A DNA stretch of 64,000 nucleotides from IMG/VR virus record IMGVR_UViG_3300035515_000417, positions 23,961-87,960 of that record. One strand, written 5' to 3'. The notes under the pieces are model-generated. The model did not search any database, was not told the DNA's origin, and saw only the letters and a program-made list of their open reading frames with translations. A program made the translations under genes and the position numbers. The DNA comes from a virus (Duplodnaviria; Caudoviricetes). The stretch's first letter is position 1. Every line of letters starts with the position of its first letter. This document shows positions 29,080-58,611 of the stretch, piece after piece.

Positions 29080-30006
29080 ATGATTAACAATAATATTTTA
29101 TACAAAGCAACGGGTAGATACATGGACGGTCAAAAACTAGTGGGATATCATTTGGTTGGTGAGGATGGAAGTCAGTCACAAGAGAATAAAGAGCGAGTAA
29201 AATTTTTGATAAGTCAAGGTATTATTGTGAATATGCGATTACAGACTGGTGAGAACGGTGAGCAGATTATAAGAGGCAAGGGTGTAAATTTGAATAACTT
29301 ACCAGTTTATGATATAGGAAAGCAGAGTTTTAGAAGTGACAGTAATTCACAATCAGCAGCCAGTAGTAAGGTATCAGTAAAGAAAAGTCAAGTGTCAGAC
29401 ATTAATTTGATGGGACAGTACAAATTGACTAAGAGGATAATGTTGAATGGCAAGTGTATTGGATATGAGATACAGGATTATAGCGGAGCAACTCAGTGGA
29501 AAAATAATAATGAGATAAAGAAATTAGCATACCAAAGATTGATAAACAATGCAGTTGTGAATAAGTACAGAAATGAGGCTGGTGAGGAAGTAATAAAATT
29601 AAGGGGTGTAGGAACGGATTTAGCCAGTCTACCTATATTAATTGTGACTGAACAAGGTAAAGTAGTTGACCCATCAGTGGAGGCCTCAAGGTTTAGTGTA
29701 AGAGCTGCTTATATGAAACATAGTGGTTTAATATATGACAATGCATCAAATGCAAGTGTGCCGTTTAAAACAGGTGATTTCATTGTATGTGAAGCAGATG
29801 GAAAGTTAGCAATAAAGTCACGCAGTGAAATGGAAAGATATTATACAATTGATACAGTGAGTGGAAGTGCAATTTGTGATGATTACTTTGTAAGGTCTAA
29901 TAGATACAGTGTAGAGATATTTGGTGGCTCAAAGGTCACATTGAATGCAAGTATGATAAAATCGTGGAAAATATTTAAACCAGAAAATAAACAGAGGATT
30001 CAGTAG
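29080..30006 (+). CDS. Hypothetical protein with two GY-domain repeats plus a C-terminal domain
   Basis: ATG 29080 after AAGGAAG. Repeat 1 YKATGRYMDGQKLVGYHL...IIRGKGVNLNNLP. Repeat 2 YKLTKRIMLNGKCIGYEI...KLRGVGTDLASLP. Confidence 0.75.
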   Translation: MINNNILYKATGRYMDGQKLVGYHLVGEDGSQSQENKERVKFLISQGIIVNMRLQTGENGEQIIRGKGVNLNNLPVYDIGKQSFRSDSNSQSAASSKVSVKKSQVSDINLMGQYKLTKRIMLNGKCIGYEIQDYSGATQWKNNNEIKKLAYQRLINNAVVNKYRNEAGEEVIKLRGVGTDLASLPILIVTEQGKVVDPSVEASRFSVRAAYMKHSGLIYDNASNASVPFKTGDFIVCEADGKLAIKSRSEMERYYTIDTVSGSAICDDYFVRSNRYSVEIFGGSKVTLNASMIKSWKIFKPENKQRIQ

Positions 30007-30060
30007 GATTTCTGTACAGATAAATTAATGTCCCTTTATCGTAAATATAAACTTTTAAAA

Positions 30061-30116
30061 ATCAAGAGGAATGTCATTTAATGAAAAAGTTGAATGCATT
30101 CCTCTTGATTTTTTTG
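30061..30116 (+). terminator. Intrinsic terminator
   Basis: ATCAAGAGGAATG...CATTCCTCTTGAT followed by a T run. Confidence 0.8.
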
Positions 30117-30543
30117 ATACATAATCAGAGAGACAGAGATGAAAAACAGGTATGCAGGGAGGGTAAAATCAGCAATATTTACAAAACGGAATCCTGAATG
30201 ATTTGAGTGTCATTAAACAAAAAGACTTAAACAGACTTTCAAAAAATCTTGAATGCATAGGAGGAATTTTAGGTAGAACTAGTGAGAAAAATTGGTATGC
30301 ATTTGGGGAACAAGTGTTTGTGTAAAAATGGGTTGAATTTTGGAAGTAAATTTGATAGGATAGTGGGTGGGAAAGGGGGAAATTGGATTGGGTGTAACGG
30401 TGTGGAAATTTACTATTGTATATCTAGTGGGAAAAATTGGGTTGAAAAGCACCAGACAAACCAGATTTAAGTGAAGCACCGAGCACAAATCATGGTACAA
30501 TTTCCAGTATGTAGTTTAATGGAATGGGAGTGGCGGTAAGTAT

Positions 30544-30581
30544 GAACAAATGTTCAGAATATATGGTTGGAACAAATGTTT
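30544..30581. promoter_or_regulatory. Two tandem Firmicutes LexA/DinR-like SOS boxes
   Basis: GAACAAATGTTC (30544-30555) and GAACAAATGTTT (30570-30581) match GAAC-N4-GTTY. Intergenic, upstream of gyrB. Confidence 0.5.
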
Positions 30582-55706: not shown

Positions 55707-56354
55707 ATGTCTATAAAGCCTATAAGATTGACTAGTAAAACACTCAATAATAGTAATATACATTTGGAAAGCTATGGTGAGAGGTTATTGCTAAGAGGAA
55801 TAAGTGAGACTGGTCAGAAATACGAGGAAGTATTAAGAAAACCAAATGTGCTTAGAATTAATATAACTGGTACTGGTAATAAGAATTATGGTATACATCT
55901 AAGGGTAATATCAAATCATGGTGGTTTAATGGATATAAAGGGTAAAACCCAGAAAATGATTGTAAGAAATGATGTGGTTTGCATAGCAAAAAGACCATTG
56001 GAGCAACCAGTTGAAATAGCCTACAGAGGTAAAATAGTAAAAGATAATAGTGTTTCAGTTAAATACATAGAAAATATGTATGGAATACAATCAAGAATTG
56101 GACCTACAGTAGCAGTACCAACAATAGAGCTTAAAAGAGCTTTATCATCTACAATAGAATTGTATTTGGACTGTTTTACAGAGGTAGTTGTAAATGGTGA
56201 TGTGGCTGAACTTGAAACAAATTTGATCACATTGTGTACAGACACAATTGCTAGTATAGGTGCTGTGAGTAATTCAATTGTTGTTAAACAAGAAAATCAT
56301 AATAACGTAGTTAAAGAAAAAGAAAATAGCTTTGATTCAATATTCAAAGTTTAA
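55707..56354 (+). CDS. Hypothetical protein between the vWA and MoxR genes
   Basis: ATG 55707 after AAGGAG; no recognised motif. Confidence 0.7.
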   Translation: MSIKPIRLTSKTLNNSNIHLESYGERLLLRGISETGQKYEEVLRKPNVLRINITGTGNKNYGIHLRVISNHGGLMDIKGKTQKMIVRNDVVCIAKRPLEQPVEIAYRGKIVKDNSVSVKYIENMYGIQSRIGPTVAVPTIELKRALSSTIELYLDCFTEVVVNGDVAELETNLITLCTDTIASIGAVSNSIVVKQENHNNVVKEKENSFDSIFKV

Positions 56355-56376
56355 ATAAAGAAAGGTGGATAATAAA

Positions 56377-57567
56377 ATGGCTGAAGATATGAACATGTTA
56401 TCTCTAACTGTAGAGAGTTTTACAAATGAGATAAAGTATGACCTTGAGAGTGAATGTTATGACCCAATGATTGGAATTGGTAAGTCAGGTGTAGGTAAGA
56501 CAATGTCAATCGCAGAATTATGCCAGGAATTAAAGATTGGTTTCTGTGAGTTGAGATTGGTAAACATGACAGAAACTGATATGCTCGGTATTCCAAAGGA
56601 AGATGAGAATGGACACACAACATATGCAAGTAATGCTTTACTCCCTGATGCAAAGAGGGACGGTGAAAGAGGAATCTTGGTACTTGATGAAATTACTTCT
56701 TGTTCTCCAACATTAAGGGCGTCAGCTTATCAGTTACTTGATAGTAAGAGAGCACTTGGTAATTATAAGTTACCTCCTAAGTGGAAAGTAATTGCACTTG
56801 GTAACGGACAGGATGATGGTGGTGTATTTAGTGGTATGGAGCATGCATTCTTATCAAGATGTACTTGCTACAGAATTGAGCCTAACTTCAAGGTTTGGAG
56901 GAAATGGGCAATTAAGAATGATGTAAATGCAACTGTACTTGCTTACTTGACACAGCATACAGATAGATTACATGTAATGGATGCTAACGAAATGGCTTGC
57001 TTGTTCCCTTGCCCAAGGTCATGGACAGCTTTAAGTCAGAAGTTGAACATGAGAGAAAAGAGACAGCTTGAGCAAACTAATGGACAGACAAAGTTACTTA
57101 CTGATGATGCAGTAGAAGTATATGCTTCAGGCGCAATTGGTGCTAAAGAGGCAGCTTCATTCAGAGGTTTTTATAAATGGAATACTCAGTTGGTTAGTGC
57201 AGATGATATCCTTGAGGGAAAGCACAAAGGCGATGGATTGGAAGATATGAGCAATGAGCTTAAGTTCCTTATAGCAGGTAATCTTGCTAAGGCTACAGCA
57301 GACATGCTTGTAAAAGAGAAATCTACTGATGAATATGGTAGAACTCAGTTTTCTAAAGAGTGTTGGAGAAAAATAAAGAATATGACAGTTTGGACAATTA
57401 AAGTAGCTGAGAATATTAGAAGAACAGACTTCGCACTGACATTGTTCAATGACTTATCAAGTATGAGCAGAGAGTTTATGGAAATTACTCAGCATGAGGA
57501 CTTTGATAATATATGTGTGGAATATGTAGATTTTGCAGTAGAAAATGAAAGGTCAACTGGACTATAA
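56377..57567 (+). CDS. MoxR-family AAA+ ATPase
   Basis: MIGIGKSGVGKT, LRLVNMTETDMLGIP, ILVLDEI, VIALGN, AFLSRC, PCPRSW. Confidence 0.85.
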   Translation: MAEDMNMLSLTVESFTNEIKYDLESECYDPMIGIGKSGVGKTMSIAELCQELKIGFCELRLVNMTETDMLGIPKEDENGHTTYASNALLPDAKRDGERGILVLDEITSCSPTLRASAYQLLDSKRALGNYKLPPKWKVIALGNGQDDGGVFSGMEHAFLSRCTCYRIEPNFKVWRKWAIKNDVNATVLAYLTQHTDRLHVMDANEMACLFPCPRSWTALSQKLNMREKRQLEQTNGQTKLLTDDAVEVYASGAIGAKEAASFRGFYKWNTQLVSADDILEGKHKGDGLEDMSNELKFLIAGNLAKATADMLVKEKSTDEYGRTQFSKECWRKIKNMTVWTIKVAENIRRTDFALTLFNDLSSMSREFMEITQHEDFDNICVEYVDFAVENERSTGL

Positions 57568-57621
57568 AGTCCGGTTGACACCATAAAATAAACTAGAAAT
57601 TAAGAAAGGTGGTAAATACAC

Positions 57622-58611
57622 ATGAGTATCATAGGTGCTGTAGTAGGATATCAGAACATAGATGATAAGAATAAAGCATTTAGAGTAGTTTATCTGGATG
57701 CTAAAGCAATTGGTGATAAGCAGTATAAATGGCAGATTAGAGCAGAGTTAAAGACAGAGGCTGACATAGTTGCAGGTAAATTAGCAGTAAATCCAAAAGA
57801 GGTTAAGTGGTTAAACATAGCTGTTGCAAATGGAAAAGTTAAGGGTACAACAGGTGACCTGAATAGGTTTAATAATAAAGTAAATAATCCACATGTAATT
57901 GTAACACAAATCATTAATGGTAATGGTGTTACAATAGGATATAAGGTATTGACACATGGCGGTGAGTTAAAGAATGTGCCATTAAAAGAAATGATAGCTT
58001 ATGGACTTAGAGTGACTAAGCAGAATGGAATACCAGTACAAAATGCAATATTTATTCCAGCAGATGATACAAAGAGGGCACACTTCAAGGCTTATCCAGG
58101 TAACAGGTTTGTAGAGGAATCTCTGGTAGCAAAAACAAAGACAGCAGAGGCGACTCCAAGTGTTCCAGTTAAGAAAAATGCTGAAACGCTTAACAGATTA
58201 GATGAGATATATAGTAAAGCACAGATAGAGCAGTTAAGACTTGGTAAGCAGTCTGGTGTAGATATAAGAATTTACGCTAATCCTGAACTCAGTGCAGAAC
58301 AGATGAAAGTGCTGAGAGGTGGACTTGAGAAACATATCAATGTTAAGTGGGTGGCAAATAAAGATTATTCGGCACTTGCAATGAAAGCTTATATACAGGC
58401 TCTGTTAGATAGAATTGATATAAGACCTTTCTTAAATCCAAAGTATGACGTAGGTCAGATTGGTGAACTTGCATTAGCAGCTGAGTTGGGACTTGACTTA
58501 TCAAAAATGGCAGACCCTAAATATAATGCCAATGACATGGCAGAGATAAGAGAAAGGCTTGAGAGAAAGATTTGGAGAGATACACTTTTAAGTGTGGATG
58601 GTAAGTGGTAA
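57622..58611 (+). CDS. GY-domain pair + C-terminal short helical repeats
   Basis: KGTTGDLNRF...PHVIVTQII.GNGVTIGYKVL. Repeats QIEQLRLGKQSGVDIRIYANPELSAEQM and QIGELALAAELGLDLSKMADPKYNANDM. Confidence 0.75.
   Translation: MSIIGAVVGYQNIDDKNKAFRVVYLDAKAIGDKQYKWQIRAELKTEADIVAGKLAVNPKEVKWLNIAVANGKVKGTTGDLNRFNNKVNNPHVIVTQIINGNGVTIGYKVLTHGGELKNVPLKEMIAYGLRVTKQNGIPVQNAIFIPADDTKRAHFKAYPGNRFVEESLVAKTKTAEATPSVPVKKNAETLNRLDEIYSKAQIEQLRLGKQSGVDIRIYANPELSAEQMKVLRGGLEKHINVKWVANKDYSALAMKAYIQALLDRIDIRPFLNPKYDVGQIGELALAAELGLDLSKMADPKYNANDMAEIRERLERKIWRDTLLSVDGKW

What the first reader, a model, noticed from the sequence alone, without database searches (positions are those of the whole stretch)
29080..58611. 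An unrecognised ~70-aa GY-domain shared by at least seven genes and fused to unrelated cargoes
Seen by eye: a module of the form hydrophobic strand-[G/D]..[LIC][VI]GY.[LIV]...helix...N...[RG]G..L..[LP/RY] recurs in 29080 (2 copies), 33044 (C-terminal), 47212 (2 copies, stand-alone), 49314 (+BspA LRR), 50489 (+Zn-site body), 53379 (+zincin-vWA) and 57622 (+helical repeats). Matching pairs include NGKCIGY/GGKCVGY, IIRGKGVNLNNLP/YLRGNGIVLKNLP, and TRGSLDRY/TNGQLSRY/TVGSFKDY/TTGDLNRF followed by a [P/S].[LV][IV]V strand, then GY.V in three of the four. I do not recognise the family. Inference: a portable addressing tag, for example a translocation signal for the element's T4SS, a self-assembly or hub-binding module, or a handle for the adjacent MoxR/vWA chaperone. 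This is the best candidate in the window for an undescribed system.
Basis: partly seen in the sequence, partly recalled or inferred. Interest (0 to 1): 0.88.

Follow-up and report, generated by a model that had tools for sequence, protein, structure and literature searches.

The report
Tandem DUF3892-like module on seven proteins
A small ~70-residue protein domain, usually present as a two-copy unit, really is shared by seven otherwise unrelated genes of a giant gut-bacterial phage- or plasmid-like element. It is a very divergent branch of the uncharacterised DUF3892 family rather than a new fold, and its function is still unknown.

Summary
Observation confirmed. All seven genes (29080, 33044, 47212, 49314, 50489, 53379, 57622) carry a homologous ~70-aa unit, 13 units in all. 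Six genes carry it as a tandem pair and 33044 as a single C-terminal copy.

- **Homology among the copies.** A unit HMM built only from database relatives scores the seven genes at E = 3e-31 to 7e-4. The best reversed decoy scores 0.75.
- **Size of the family.** 1,205 clusters at 50% identity, and the ten clusters sampled were all metagenomic and unnamed. Related records of 134-268 kb give 9-17 unit matches each.
- **Distribution.** The profile matched none of 401 sampled Clostridia genomes.
- **Identity.** The domain is not new. Profile-profile comparison with canonical DUF3892 (PF13031) gives 97% probability, P = 7e-11, over the whole domain. One 29068-family relative and one other family member pass Pfam's own DUF3892 threshold. 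The nearest ESM Atlas structure is a DUF3892 cluster. Pfam's model does not detect the window's own copies.
- **Fold.** Predicted as strand-strand-strand-helix-strand-strand, pLDDT 85-97, with no clear match among solved structures.
- **Function.** Most likely a non-catalytic binding or adaptor module that brings varied cargoes (BspA-type LRR, zincin-vWA, others) to one target. That target could be RNA, the ribosome or DNA. This is inference.
Nothing supports a T4SS signal or a MoxR handle.

The scan found the same thing earlier on other DNA (e1-5769353).

The parts
29080..30006 (+). Gene 29080 (ORF from GTG 29068): two A-type units (about 29089-29310 and 29410-29637) plus a conserved ~110-aa C-terminal domain with no Pfam family
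   Evidence: Deep unit HMM E = 2.6e-30, units at residues 12-80 and 117-190. Six-frame hits. 15-member full-length alignment A5. A relative of this family, P0161 (BLASTP 1e-39, 30% identity), passes Pfam DUF3892 at 28.2 bits against a cut-off of 22.3.
33044..34138 (+). Gene 33044: N-terminal domain, very basic Q/N/R-rich linker (net charge +33), and a single C-terminal unit at about 33905-34129
   Evidence: Deep HMM E = 8.8e-11 at residues 289-361. Independent unit HMM 0.004. BLASTP to family members P0155, P0129 and P0065 at 2e-4 to 1e-3. Charge.
47212..47673 (+). Gene 47212: stand-alone tandem of two A-type units (47218-47448 and 47458-47664), 153 aa
   Evidence: 14-member family A1. AF2 model pLDDT 84.9, each unit strand-strand-strand-helix-strand-strand. 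Deep HMM 2.6e-27. ESM Atlas top structural neighbour is a DUF3892 cluster, TM 0.58 over 68 residues. It directly follows the 46199-family gene in the window, L003 and L134.
49314..50231 (+). Gene 49314 (ORF from GTG 49275): B-type tandem (49314-49553 and 49575-49766) fused to BspA-type leucine-rich repeats
   Evidence: LRR_5 E = 1.4e-20 at residues 198-296. BLASTP to the 50489 N-terminus 1e-11. Deep HMM 9.5e-13.
50489..53368 (+). Gene 50489: B-type tandem (50489-50707 and 50735-50935) fused to an ~800-aa body with no Pfam or PHROG family
   Evidence: Deep HMM 3.3e-31. AF2 model of residues 1-150 with a 68-row alignment: pLDDT 96.9, pTM 0.90. No family hit for the body.
53379..55598 (+). Gene 53379: B-type tandem (53379-53603 and 53655-53816) fused to DUF2201_N zincin-like and DUF2201 vWA-like domains
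   Evidence: Pfam DUF2201_N 8e-33 and DUF2201 4e-13. Units found. The window copy is weak in the deep HMM (6.8e-4) but its orthologues score 5e-24. The same fusion is seen in G001, G794 and G795.
57622..58611 (+). Gene 57622: B-type tandem (57625-57876 and 57883-58068) fused to a helical C-terminal region. It lies directly after the AAA_5 (MoxR-like) gene 56365-57567
   Evidence: Deep HMM 2.8e-7, orthologues 1e-12. BLASTP to 50489 0.007. The same gene order (AAA_5 then a 329-aa protein) is in L002 and L003.

Best explanation
The 'GY domain' is a highly divergent member of the DUF3892 superfamily that is specific to this clade of elements. Each unit of about 70 residues is predicted to fold as a three-stranded meander, one helix and a beta-hairpin. 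In these giant (about 130-430 kb) extrachromosomal elements of gut Clostridia-like hosts the unit was duplicated into a tandem pair, and the pair spread to many genes.

Two subtypes exist. The A type keeps a remnant of the canonical DUF3892 C-terminal 'NL..LP' motif. It is mostly stand-alone or carries a short tail (29080, 33044, 47212). The B type ends in 'G..G.L.RY' and '[SA]I.G.Y'. It is almost always N-terminal to long cargoes (49314, 50489, 53379, 57622).

The homology and the architecture are shown. The rest is inferred. The tandem has no catalytic signature. It is the only part shared by proteins with unrelated bodies, and it also exists alone. It therefore most likely acts as a binding or adaptor module that takes its different cargoes to one common target. 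By analogy with what has been proposed for DUF3892, whose beta-beta-beta-alpha core is like that of dsRNA-binding domains and ribosome hibernation factors, the leading candidate target is a nucleic acid or the ribosome. Another conserved component of the element is equally possible.
For: Homology among the seven genes.

Link to DUF3892:
- hhalign of the unit alignment against 26 canonical DUF3892 proteins from Bacillota genomes gives probability 96.3%, P = 1.9e-9, over 70 columns. With the 335-sequence alignment it gives 97.1%, P = 7.3e-11. Reversed controls give P about 0.5.
- P0161 (a 29068-family relative) and P0033 pass Pfam's DUF3892 gathering score.
- The top structural neighbour of 47212 in the ESM Atlas is a DUF3892 cluster, TM 0.58 over 68 residues.

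Fold: both AF2 models give strand-strand-strand-helix-strand-strand twice.

Module behaviour:
- 1,205 clusters, nearly all with two units. They are mostly N-terminal, and protein lengths range from 148 to 1,335 aa.
- Cargoes are varied.
- 9-17 unit matches per related record.

Hints about the target:
- Units are mostly mildly basic, net +1 to +7 in 19 of 25. 33044 has net charge +33.
- The stand-alone tandem is a conserved gene next to the ligase-like and ParB-HNH genes in distant relatives.
- The published inference on the DUF3892 fold and RNA or ribosome sensing is in bioRxiv 10.1101/2025.01.14.632903.
Against: - No binding partner of any kind was shown.
- No solved structure resembles the model closely. 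The best Z scores are 3.8 and 4.2, to the N-terminal region of the SaPIbov1 Rep protein. Chromo-like domains score about 3.3. The fold therefore gives no functional transfer.
- DUF3892 itself has no experimentally known function, so the RNA/ribosome idea is second-hand inference.
- Charge is only mildly positive, and some units are acidic.
- Pfam's DUF3892 model does not detect the window's own copies.
- Proximity to IF3 and SmpB is not evidence, because all genes here lie in one long co-oriented block.
Confidence: 0.5

Rival explanations
1. Conflict-system sensor or decoy. In bacteria DUF3892 occurs in defence-type operons and is fused to effectors. The element's expanded DUF3892-like proteins could be its own sensor-plus-effector arsenal against competing phages or plasmids. 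They could also be mimics that interfere with host systems built on DUF3892.
For: DUF3892 is reported in CapH/CapP-regulated operons and fused to Min-Wnt effectors. Earlier scan notes describe DUF3892 in defence-island cassettes (untested here). Canonical DUF3892 occurs in 27 of 401 Bacillota genomes as small stand-alone proteins. Paralogue expansion and rapid divergence, with arrays of LRR paralogues beside a GY-LRR gene in L119, are typical of conflict genes. One cargo is a zincin-like peptidase.
Against: No known effector domain (nuclease, TIR, pore-former, Min-Wnt) was found among 99 cargoes. The stand-alone tandem and the DUF2201 fusion are syntenic core genes of the clade rather than variable island cargo. 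PADLOC was not run.
Confidence: 0.15
2. Self-assembly or co-assembly module. The tandems bind one another, with the stand-alone 47212 protein as hub or regulator, and so gather the cargoes into one complex or condensate.
For: The B-type tandem is modelled as one compact two-domain body, pTM 0.90, so unit-to-unit contacts exist within a chain. The stand-alone version is conserved. Many paralogues coexist in one genome.
Against: No positive evidence of contacts between chains. The A-type model has low inter-unit confidence, pTM 0.55.
Confidence: 0.12
3. Handle for the neighbouring MoxR-like AAA+ ATPase and DUF2201 vWA protein. The tandem marks clients or subunits of that chaperone-like machine.
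For: Two GY genes flank the AAA_5 gene, and one is itself the DUF2201 zincin-vWA protein. This arrangement and the fusion recur in relatives.
Against: Only 6 of 99 larger relatives carry DUF2201. GY genes also lie far from the MoxR gene, at 29 and 33 kb in the window and at 193-267 kb in G001. All records checked are one syntenic clade, so the linkage is not independent. Ordinary MoxR/DUF2201 pairs in phages (PHROGs 1297 and 1314) are not known to have such a tag.
Confidence: 0.08
4. Translocation or packaging signal. The tandem addresses proteins to the element's FtsK/HerA-type DNA or protein translocation apparatus, or into a particle, for delivery to a recipient cell.
For: A HerA/DUF87-type ATPase and an FtsK/SpoIIIE ATPase lie side by side upstream and are conserved in relatives. 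LRR cargoes are reminiscent of delivered effectors.
Against: - The module is a folded domain and is N-terminal in most cases, whereas known type IV substrates typically use C-terminal or internal signals (established knowledge).
- About 60 of the 161 best relatives are tandems with no cargo.
- The apparatus is not shown to be a T4SS. AAA_10 scores below its cut-off, and no relaxase was sought or seen.
- Whether the element forms particles is unknown.
Confidence: 0.07

Closest known systems
Pfam DUF3892 (PF13031), small uncharacterised proteins of bacteria, archaea and some phages
   Same: Homologous over the whole ~70-residue domain: hhalign 96-97%, P = 2e-9 to 7e-11. Same predicted order of secondary structure. 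Shared aromatic residue in strand 2 (the 'GY'), the turn with D..G, the helix followed by N or G, and, in the A type, the C-terminal 'NL..LP' motif. Two family members pass Pfam's threshold.
   Different: The window's copies are invisible to the Pfam model. They are tandem rather than single. They are fused to long cargoes rather than being 70-110-aa stand-alone proteins. The B type has lost the 'NNL..LP' tail. They matched none of 401 sampled Clostridia genomes.
DUF3892 fused to Min-Wnt (Lipocone) effectors and DUF3892 operons under CapH/CapP control (bioRxiv 10.1101/2025.01.14.632903 and 10.1101/2022.04.27.489752)
   Same: The same superfamily used as a non-catalytic module attached to, or encoded beside, other functional proteins. 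An association with zincin-type peptidases is reported there and is seen here as a direct fusion to DUF2201_N.
   Different: Here the cargoes are LRR, DUF2201 zincin-vWA, helical and unknown bodies, not Min-Wnt. There is no HTH/ImmA-type regulator pair next to the genes. The context is a giant element's replication and maintenance block, not a defence island.
Chromo, chromoshadow and Tudor-type small beta-barrel domains, and the N-terminal region of the SaPIbov1 Rep helicase (PDB 8tch)
   Same: Three-stranded sheet followed by a helix. These are the best, though weak, structural matches of both models: Z = 3.8-4.2 for 8tch_B over 65-66 residues and Z about 3.3 for chromo domains.
   Different: The Z scores are far below the level that indicates a shared fold with this tool. 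There is no sequence similarity, and the GY unit has an extra C-terminal hairpin.
Tandem DUF3892-like tag reported earlier in this scan on another genome (e1-5769353)
   Same: Same description: a ~70-aa DUF3892-like unit, usually a two-copy module, on several unrelated proteins of a very large phage- or plasmid-like element.
   Different: Different DNA record. I did not compare the two sequences directly.

Membership tests
Pfam DUF3892 (PF13031) | Pfam HMM match at or above the gathering score (22.3 bits) on the window's own copies | tested here: not met
   No match at E <= 10 in the whole 88-kb record. Scanned singly, 2 of 25 units reach only E = 0.067.
Pfam DUF3892 (PF13031) | Pfam HMM match at or above the gathering score in relatives of the same family | tested here: met
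   P0161 (29068-family relative, BLASTP 1e-39) scores 28.2 bits at residues 22-66, inside its unit 1. P0033 scores 24.5 bits.
Pfam DUF3892 (PF13031) | Profile-profile homology over the whole domain | tested here: met
   hhalign gives 96.3% (P = 1.9e-9) and 97.1% (P = 7.3e-11) over 70 columns. Reversed controls give P about 0.5.
Pfam DUF3892 (PF13031) | [quoted passage not shown] | tested here: met
   AF2 models give strand-strand-strand-helix-strand-strand for each unit, pLDDT 84.9 and 96.9. The nearest ESM Atlas model is a DUF3892 cluster, TM 0.58. These are predictions only.
Pfam DUF3892 (PF13031) | C-terminal NNL..LP motif, seen in the 26 canonical sequences collected here | tested here: inconclusive
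   Kept in weakened form in A-type units (NLNNLP, LKNLP, LDELP). Replaced by ..RY or .G.Y in B-type units.
Pfam DUF3892 (PF13031) | Usual architecture: a single domain in a 70-110-aa stand-alone protein | tested here: not met
   Canonical hits in Bacillota are mostly open frames of about 70-145 aa with one domain. Here there are tandem pairs, mostly fused, in proteins of 148-1,335 aa.
Type IV secretion substrate signals (C-terminal charged tails, BID, relaxase TSA/TSB) | A recognisable known signal type, and dependence on a coupling protein | not testable with these tools
   The module is a folded, mostly N-terminal domain with no similarity to any Pfam family other than DUF3892. Transfer cannot be tested in silico.
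Chromo/Tudor-like small beta-barrels | Clear structural superposition | tested here: inconclusive
   Best Z = 3.3 over about 50 residues, and no Foldseek hit at E <= 0.001.
IF3 N-terminal domain (PF05198) | Sequence or profile match | tested here: inconclusive
   The only signal is a unit-HMM hit to the IF3 of L001 at E = 0.023 in a 252-sequence set. There is no Pfam IF3_N hit on any unit.

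The most novel reading that the evidence does not exclude
The tandem DUF3892-like pair is a dedicated intracellular addressing system of a clade of giant gut elements. About 7 to 12 different proteins per genome (LRR scaffolds, a zincin-vWA protein next to a MoxR ATPase, large orphan proteins) would be recruited through the same module to one target, for example host ribosomes or RNA or the element's own DNA or compartment. 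The stand-alone tandem would act as competitor or regulator. This would also give the first handle on what DUF3892 domains bind in general.
Probability: 0.2. Interest if true: 0.75.

Novelty: new variant of a known kind. Interest (0 to 1): 0.45.

Why it matters
DUF3892 is a widespread domain of unknown function that keeps turning up in bacterial conflict systems. Here a branch of it that the Pfam model does not detect in these proteins forms a family of more than a thousand sequence clusters, and the ten sampled were all unnamed metagenomic sequences. That branch has been multiplied within giant, uncultured gut elements and attached to many different proteins.

The repeated reuse of one module on unrelated cargoes is a natural experiment. 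Finding what the tandem binds would explain a block of orphan genes in these elements, and it would probably also explain the function of DUF3892 in general. A profile built from these sequences would allow annotation of proteins that currently have none.

The finding is not a new fold or a new kind of system, and the same pattern was already reported once in this scan.

Tried and rejected
- **Phage and plasmid collections.** tblastn of the 50489 tandem against both found nothing.
- **GTDB species genomes.** Scans with the 47212 family found no relative.
- **Self-association of 47212.** A two-copy complex-prediction job gave no verdict (score 0.00, controls not run). This is neither for nor against binding.
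- **Solved structures, by sequence profile.** Only chance-level hits, with Hjc resolvase at E = 0.076.
- **Solved structures, by fold.** Foldseek against PDB for both models gave nothing at E <= 0.001. A PlyCB hit with probability 0.60 and TM 0.40 was judged too weak. VIA-align wide gave a best Z of 3.8 and 4.2.
- **Viral predicted structures (BFVD).** The only notable hit was a 92-aa Bacillus phage Bc431v3 protein, probability 0.99 and TM 0.53, with no function attached.
- **IF3_N-like origin.** My early idea was not borne out.
- **Shared promoter or upstream motif specific to the GY genes.** None seen.
- **Cargo of 57622.** ESM Atlas search gave only unnamed helical proteins.
- **46199 as a LigA C-terminal half.** No support from the sequence search against solved structures or from Pfam.
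- **Phage or plasmid?** Terminase_6N, TerL_ATPase, Phage_capsid and Phage_portal Pfam models found nothing significant in four related records. A PHROG scan of 85 ORFs of G001 listed replication, transposase, homing-endonuclease and tRNA-related families in its top 25 of 119 families and no structural genes there. AAA_10 scored below its cut-off. The nature of the element stays open.

Full report
**Setting.** The window is the last 64 kb of an 88-kb IMG/VR record (labelled provirus, CheckV completeness 39%). It has 33% G+C, and every gene lies on the + strand.

The stretch encodes:
- a ParA-like protein, a HerA/DUF87-type ATPase and an FtsK/SpoIIIE ATPase;
- GyrB- and GyrA-like subunits, a weak DnaB-like helicase match, a degenerate ligase-like protein and a ParB_N-HNH protein;
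- IF3, SmpB, an MscS channel and a ClpA/B-like ATPase;
- a DUF2201 zincin-vWA protein beside an AAA_5 (MoxR-like) ATPase.

Relatives are human-gut (Hadza and other) metagenome contigs of 100-430 kb and IMG/VR records of 134-268 kb with the same gene order. The closest cellular GyrB sequences, at 37-42% identity, are from Clostridia.

Profiles remove the doubt.
- An HMM of three N-termini finds the N-termini of the DUF2201 orthologues in two related contigs at about 1e-14. It finds the 47212 orthologues at 1e-6 and 5e-5.
- Splitting the tandems gives one clean unit alignment. Its HMM contained neither 29068 nor 33044. It finds 29068 at 1e-10 and the C-terminus of 33044 at 0.004, with the best reversed decoy at 0.13.
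- A search of 1.84 billion cluster representatives with a 25-unit alignment (A2) returned 1,205 clusters at E <= 1e-3 and 380 at E <= 1e-10. Nearly all have two matched stretches.
- An HMM rebuilt from 335 units of those database proteins, with the window's own proteins removed, scores the seven window genes between 3e-31 and 7e-4. The best decoy scores 0.75.
- BLASTP through intermediates links all subfamilies.

Thirteen units lie in the window. One or two more lie upstream in the same record.

**Anatomy.** Two subtypes separate cleanly.
- **A type (29080, 33044, 47212).** It ends in a '..G..L..LP' motif. It occurs mostly as stand-alone tandems of 150-190 aa or with short tails.
- **B type (49314, 50489, 53379, 57622).** Unit 1 ends in 'G[ST].G.L.RY' and unit 2 in '[SA]I.G.Y'. 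It sits at the N-terminus of proteins up to 1,335 aa.

AlphaFold2 gives the same order of elements in every unit: three strands, a helix and two strands. The A-type protein 47212 has pLDDT 84.9 and pTM 0.55. The B-type tandem of 50489 has pLDDT 96.9 and pTM 0.90, so its two units pack into one body.

Cargo families among 99 larger relatives are as follows:

| Cargo family | Relatives |
|---|---|
| BspA-type LRR_5 | 19 |
| DUF2201_N plus DUF2201 | 6 |
| FNIP repeats | 2 |
| WG repeats | 1 |
| SprT-like | 1 |
| Two small A-type members match DUF3892 itself; most others have no Pfam family | remainder |

One 89%-complete relative (G001, 268 kb) gives 17 unit matches, and I located units in about 12 of its genes. 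Two other relatives give 9 and 12 unit matches.

**What is it?** It is not an unknown family. Five lines tie it to Pfam DUF3892.
1. When the 25 units were scanned singly against Pfam, two touched DUF3892 at E = 0.067.
2. Among relatives, P0161 (a 29068-family member, BLASTP 1e-39 to 29068) scores 28.2 bits. P0033 scores 24.5 bits. Both exceed Pfam's gathering score of 22.3 bits, and in P0161 the match lies inside its unit 1.
3. The nearest ESM Atlas structure to 47212 is a DUF3892 cluster (TM 0.58, 68 residues). The next is a viral DUF2201 cluster.
4. I collected 26 canonical DUF3892 proteins from 401 Bacillota genomes. I compared profiles: 96.3% probability, P = 1.9e-9 over 70 columns for A2, and 97.1%, P = 7.3e-11 for the 335-unit alignment. 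Reversed controls gave P about 0.5.
5. The alignment pairs the GY strand, the D..G turn, the helix, the N/G after it and the 'NL..LP' tail.

Pfam's model nevertheless finds nothing in this record, which is why the domain looked unrecognised. The unit profile matched none of 401 sampled Clostridia genomes. It does ring strongly on the element's own record and on the related records tested. Ten sampled clusters are all unnamed metagenomic sequences.

**What does it do?** Nothing here shows a function. Structure searches give only weak matches:
- Z = 3.8 and 4.2 to the N-terminal region of the SaPIbov1 Rep protein;
- Z about 3.3 to chromo and chromoshadow domains;
- no Foldseek hit at E <= 0.001;
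- in BFVD, only a 92-aa Bacillus phage protein stands out.

The literature held here says DUF3892 has a three-stranded meander plus helix, like dsRNA-binding domains and ribosome hibernation factors. It is fused to Min-Wnt effectors and may sense viral RNA or modified ribosomes (10.1101/2025.01.14.632903). It also occurs in operons under CapH/CapP-type repressor-protease control (10.1101/2022.04.27.489752). Both statements are predictions.

My reading rests on three points:
- the tandem is a non-catalytic module;
- it is the only shared part of otherwise unrelated proteins;
- it also exists alone as a conserved gene.

It is therefore most likely a binding or adaptor module for one common target. 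Mild support for a nucleic-acid target comes from the mostly positive net charge of the units and from the +33 charge of 33044. Further mild support is the conserved position of the stand-alone gene directly after the 46199-family gene, downstream of the ligase-like and ParB-HNH genes, in distant relatives. I put this at about one half. Most of that weight lies on 'adaptor' and much less on the identity of the target.

**Rivals.**
- **Conflict-system role (sensor plus effector, or decoy).** This fits the known company of DUF3892 and the paralogue expansion. No recognised effector domain was found, and several GY genes are syntenic core genes.
- **Co-assembly.** Possible, but there is no positive evidence.
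- **MoxR/vWA handle.** It rests on two flanking genes. Only 6 of 99 cargoes are DUF2201, and other GY genes lie far away.
- **T4SS-signal idea.** It is the weakest. The module is folded and mostly N-terminal, many family members have no cargo, and the apparatus is not established as a T4SS. DUF87 and FtsK domains are present, AAA_10 scores below its cut-off, and no relaxase was seen.

All records in which I could test linkage belong to one syntenic clade, so co-occurrence with FtsK or MoxR says nothing.

**Nature of the element.** It is unresolved. IMG/VR calls these records viral. Four Pfam hallmark models (Terminase_6N, TerL_ATPase, Phage_capsid, Phage_portal) nevertheless find nothing significant in four records, including one rated 100% complete. 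The top 25 of 119 PHROG families hit in G001 include no structural genes. Divergent structural genes could still have been missed.

**Verdict.** The 'unrecognised' domain is a divergent, tandem branch of DUF3892 specific to these elements. The general idea of a portable module is supported, and the specific mechanisms are not. The same pattern was reported earlier in this scan on another genome (e1-5769353). I reached the DUF3892 assignment before reading that note. I rate it a new variant of a known kind, of moderate interest.

Noticed in passing
window 46199-47179 and 47212-47673; L003:9029-10468; L134:9033-10486: The stand-alone tandem gene directly follows a 46199-family gene (about 300-326 aa, no Pfam family) in the window and in two relatives. 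One relative is distant, at 32% identity over 272 residues. The gaps between the two genes are 3 to 68 bases. They may be functional partners.
   Followed up: partly
G000:C1:10183-10368 and G000:C1:2159-2917 (upstream of the window in the same record): There are two further probable unit copies. One is at the N-terminus of an 891-aa ORF (E = 3e-5 to 3e-6). The other is weaker, in a 252-aa ORF (E = 0.002). The family in this record is therefore larger than seven genes.
   Followed up: partly
G000, G001, G794, G795 (whole records): No significant match to the Terminase_6N, TerL_ATPase, Phage_capsid or Phage_portal Pfam models in four related 'virus' records, one rated 100% complete. A HerA/DUF87-type plus FtsK-type ATPase pair is conserved in all four. 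The viral label of this clade is open to question. It may be a giant plasmid-like element or a virus with very divergent structural genes.
   Followed up: partly
window 35718-35737, 55648-55667, 61131-61149 (also near 24900, 29000, 30760, 33010, 59610): An AT-rich motif of the form GGTATATTT..TTTTTAA recurs 30-70 bases upstream of several genes. A degenerate pattern gave 6 matches against 0.3 expected. It may be a promoter or regulatory site specific to the element. It is not specific to the GY genes.
   Followed up: partly
L119:47-8245: Four consecutive BspA-type LRR_5 genes lie on a 32-kb contig, the last being a 1,306-aa GY-LRR protein, followed later by a family A DNA polymerase. This is a local expansion of LRR paralogues beside a GY gene.
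   Followed up: no
window 33044-34138: The 33044 protein has a net charge of +33 and a long Q/N/R/P-rich low-complexity linker between its N-terminal domain and the C-terminal unit. That composition is typical of nucleic-acid-binding or condensate-forming proteins.
   Followed up: no
window 30784-32856 and 35798-38107: The element encodes its own GyrB-like and GyrA-like subunits. The nearest cellular GyrB sequences, at 37-42% identity, are from Clostridia (Oscillospiraceae, Ruminococcus, Acetivibrionales). This is a weak hint to the host lineage.
   Followed up: partly
window 1-64000: No tRNA or tmRNA gene is found in the 64-kb window, although the element encodes SmpB and IF3.
   Followed up: no
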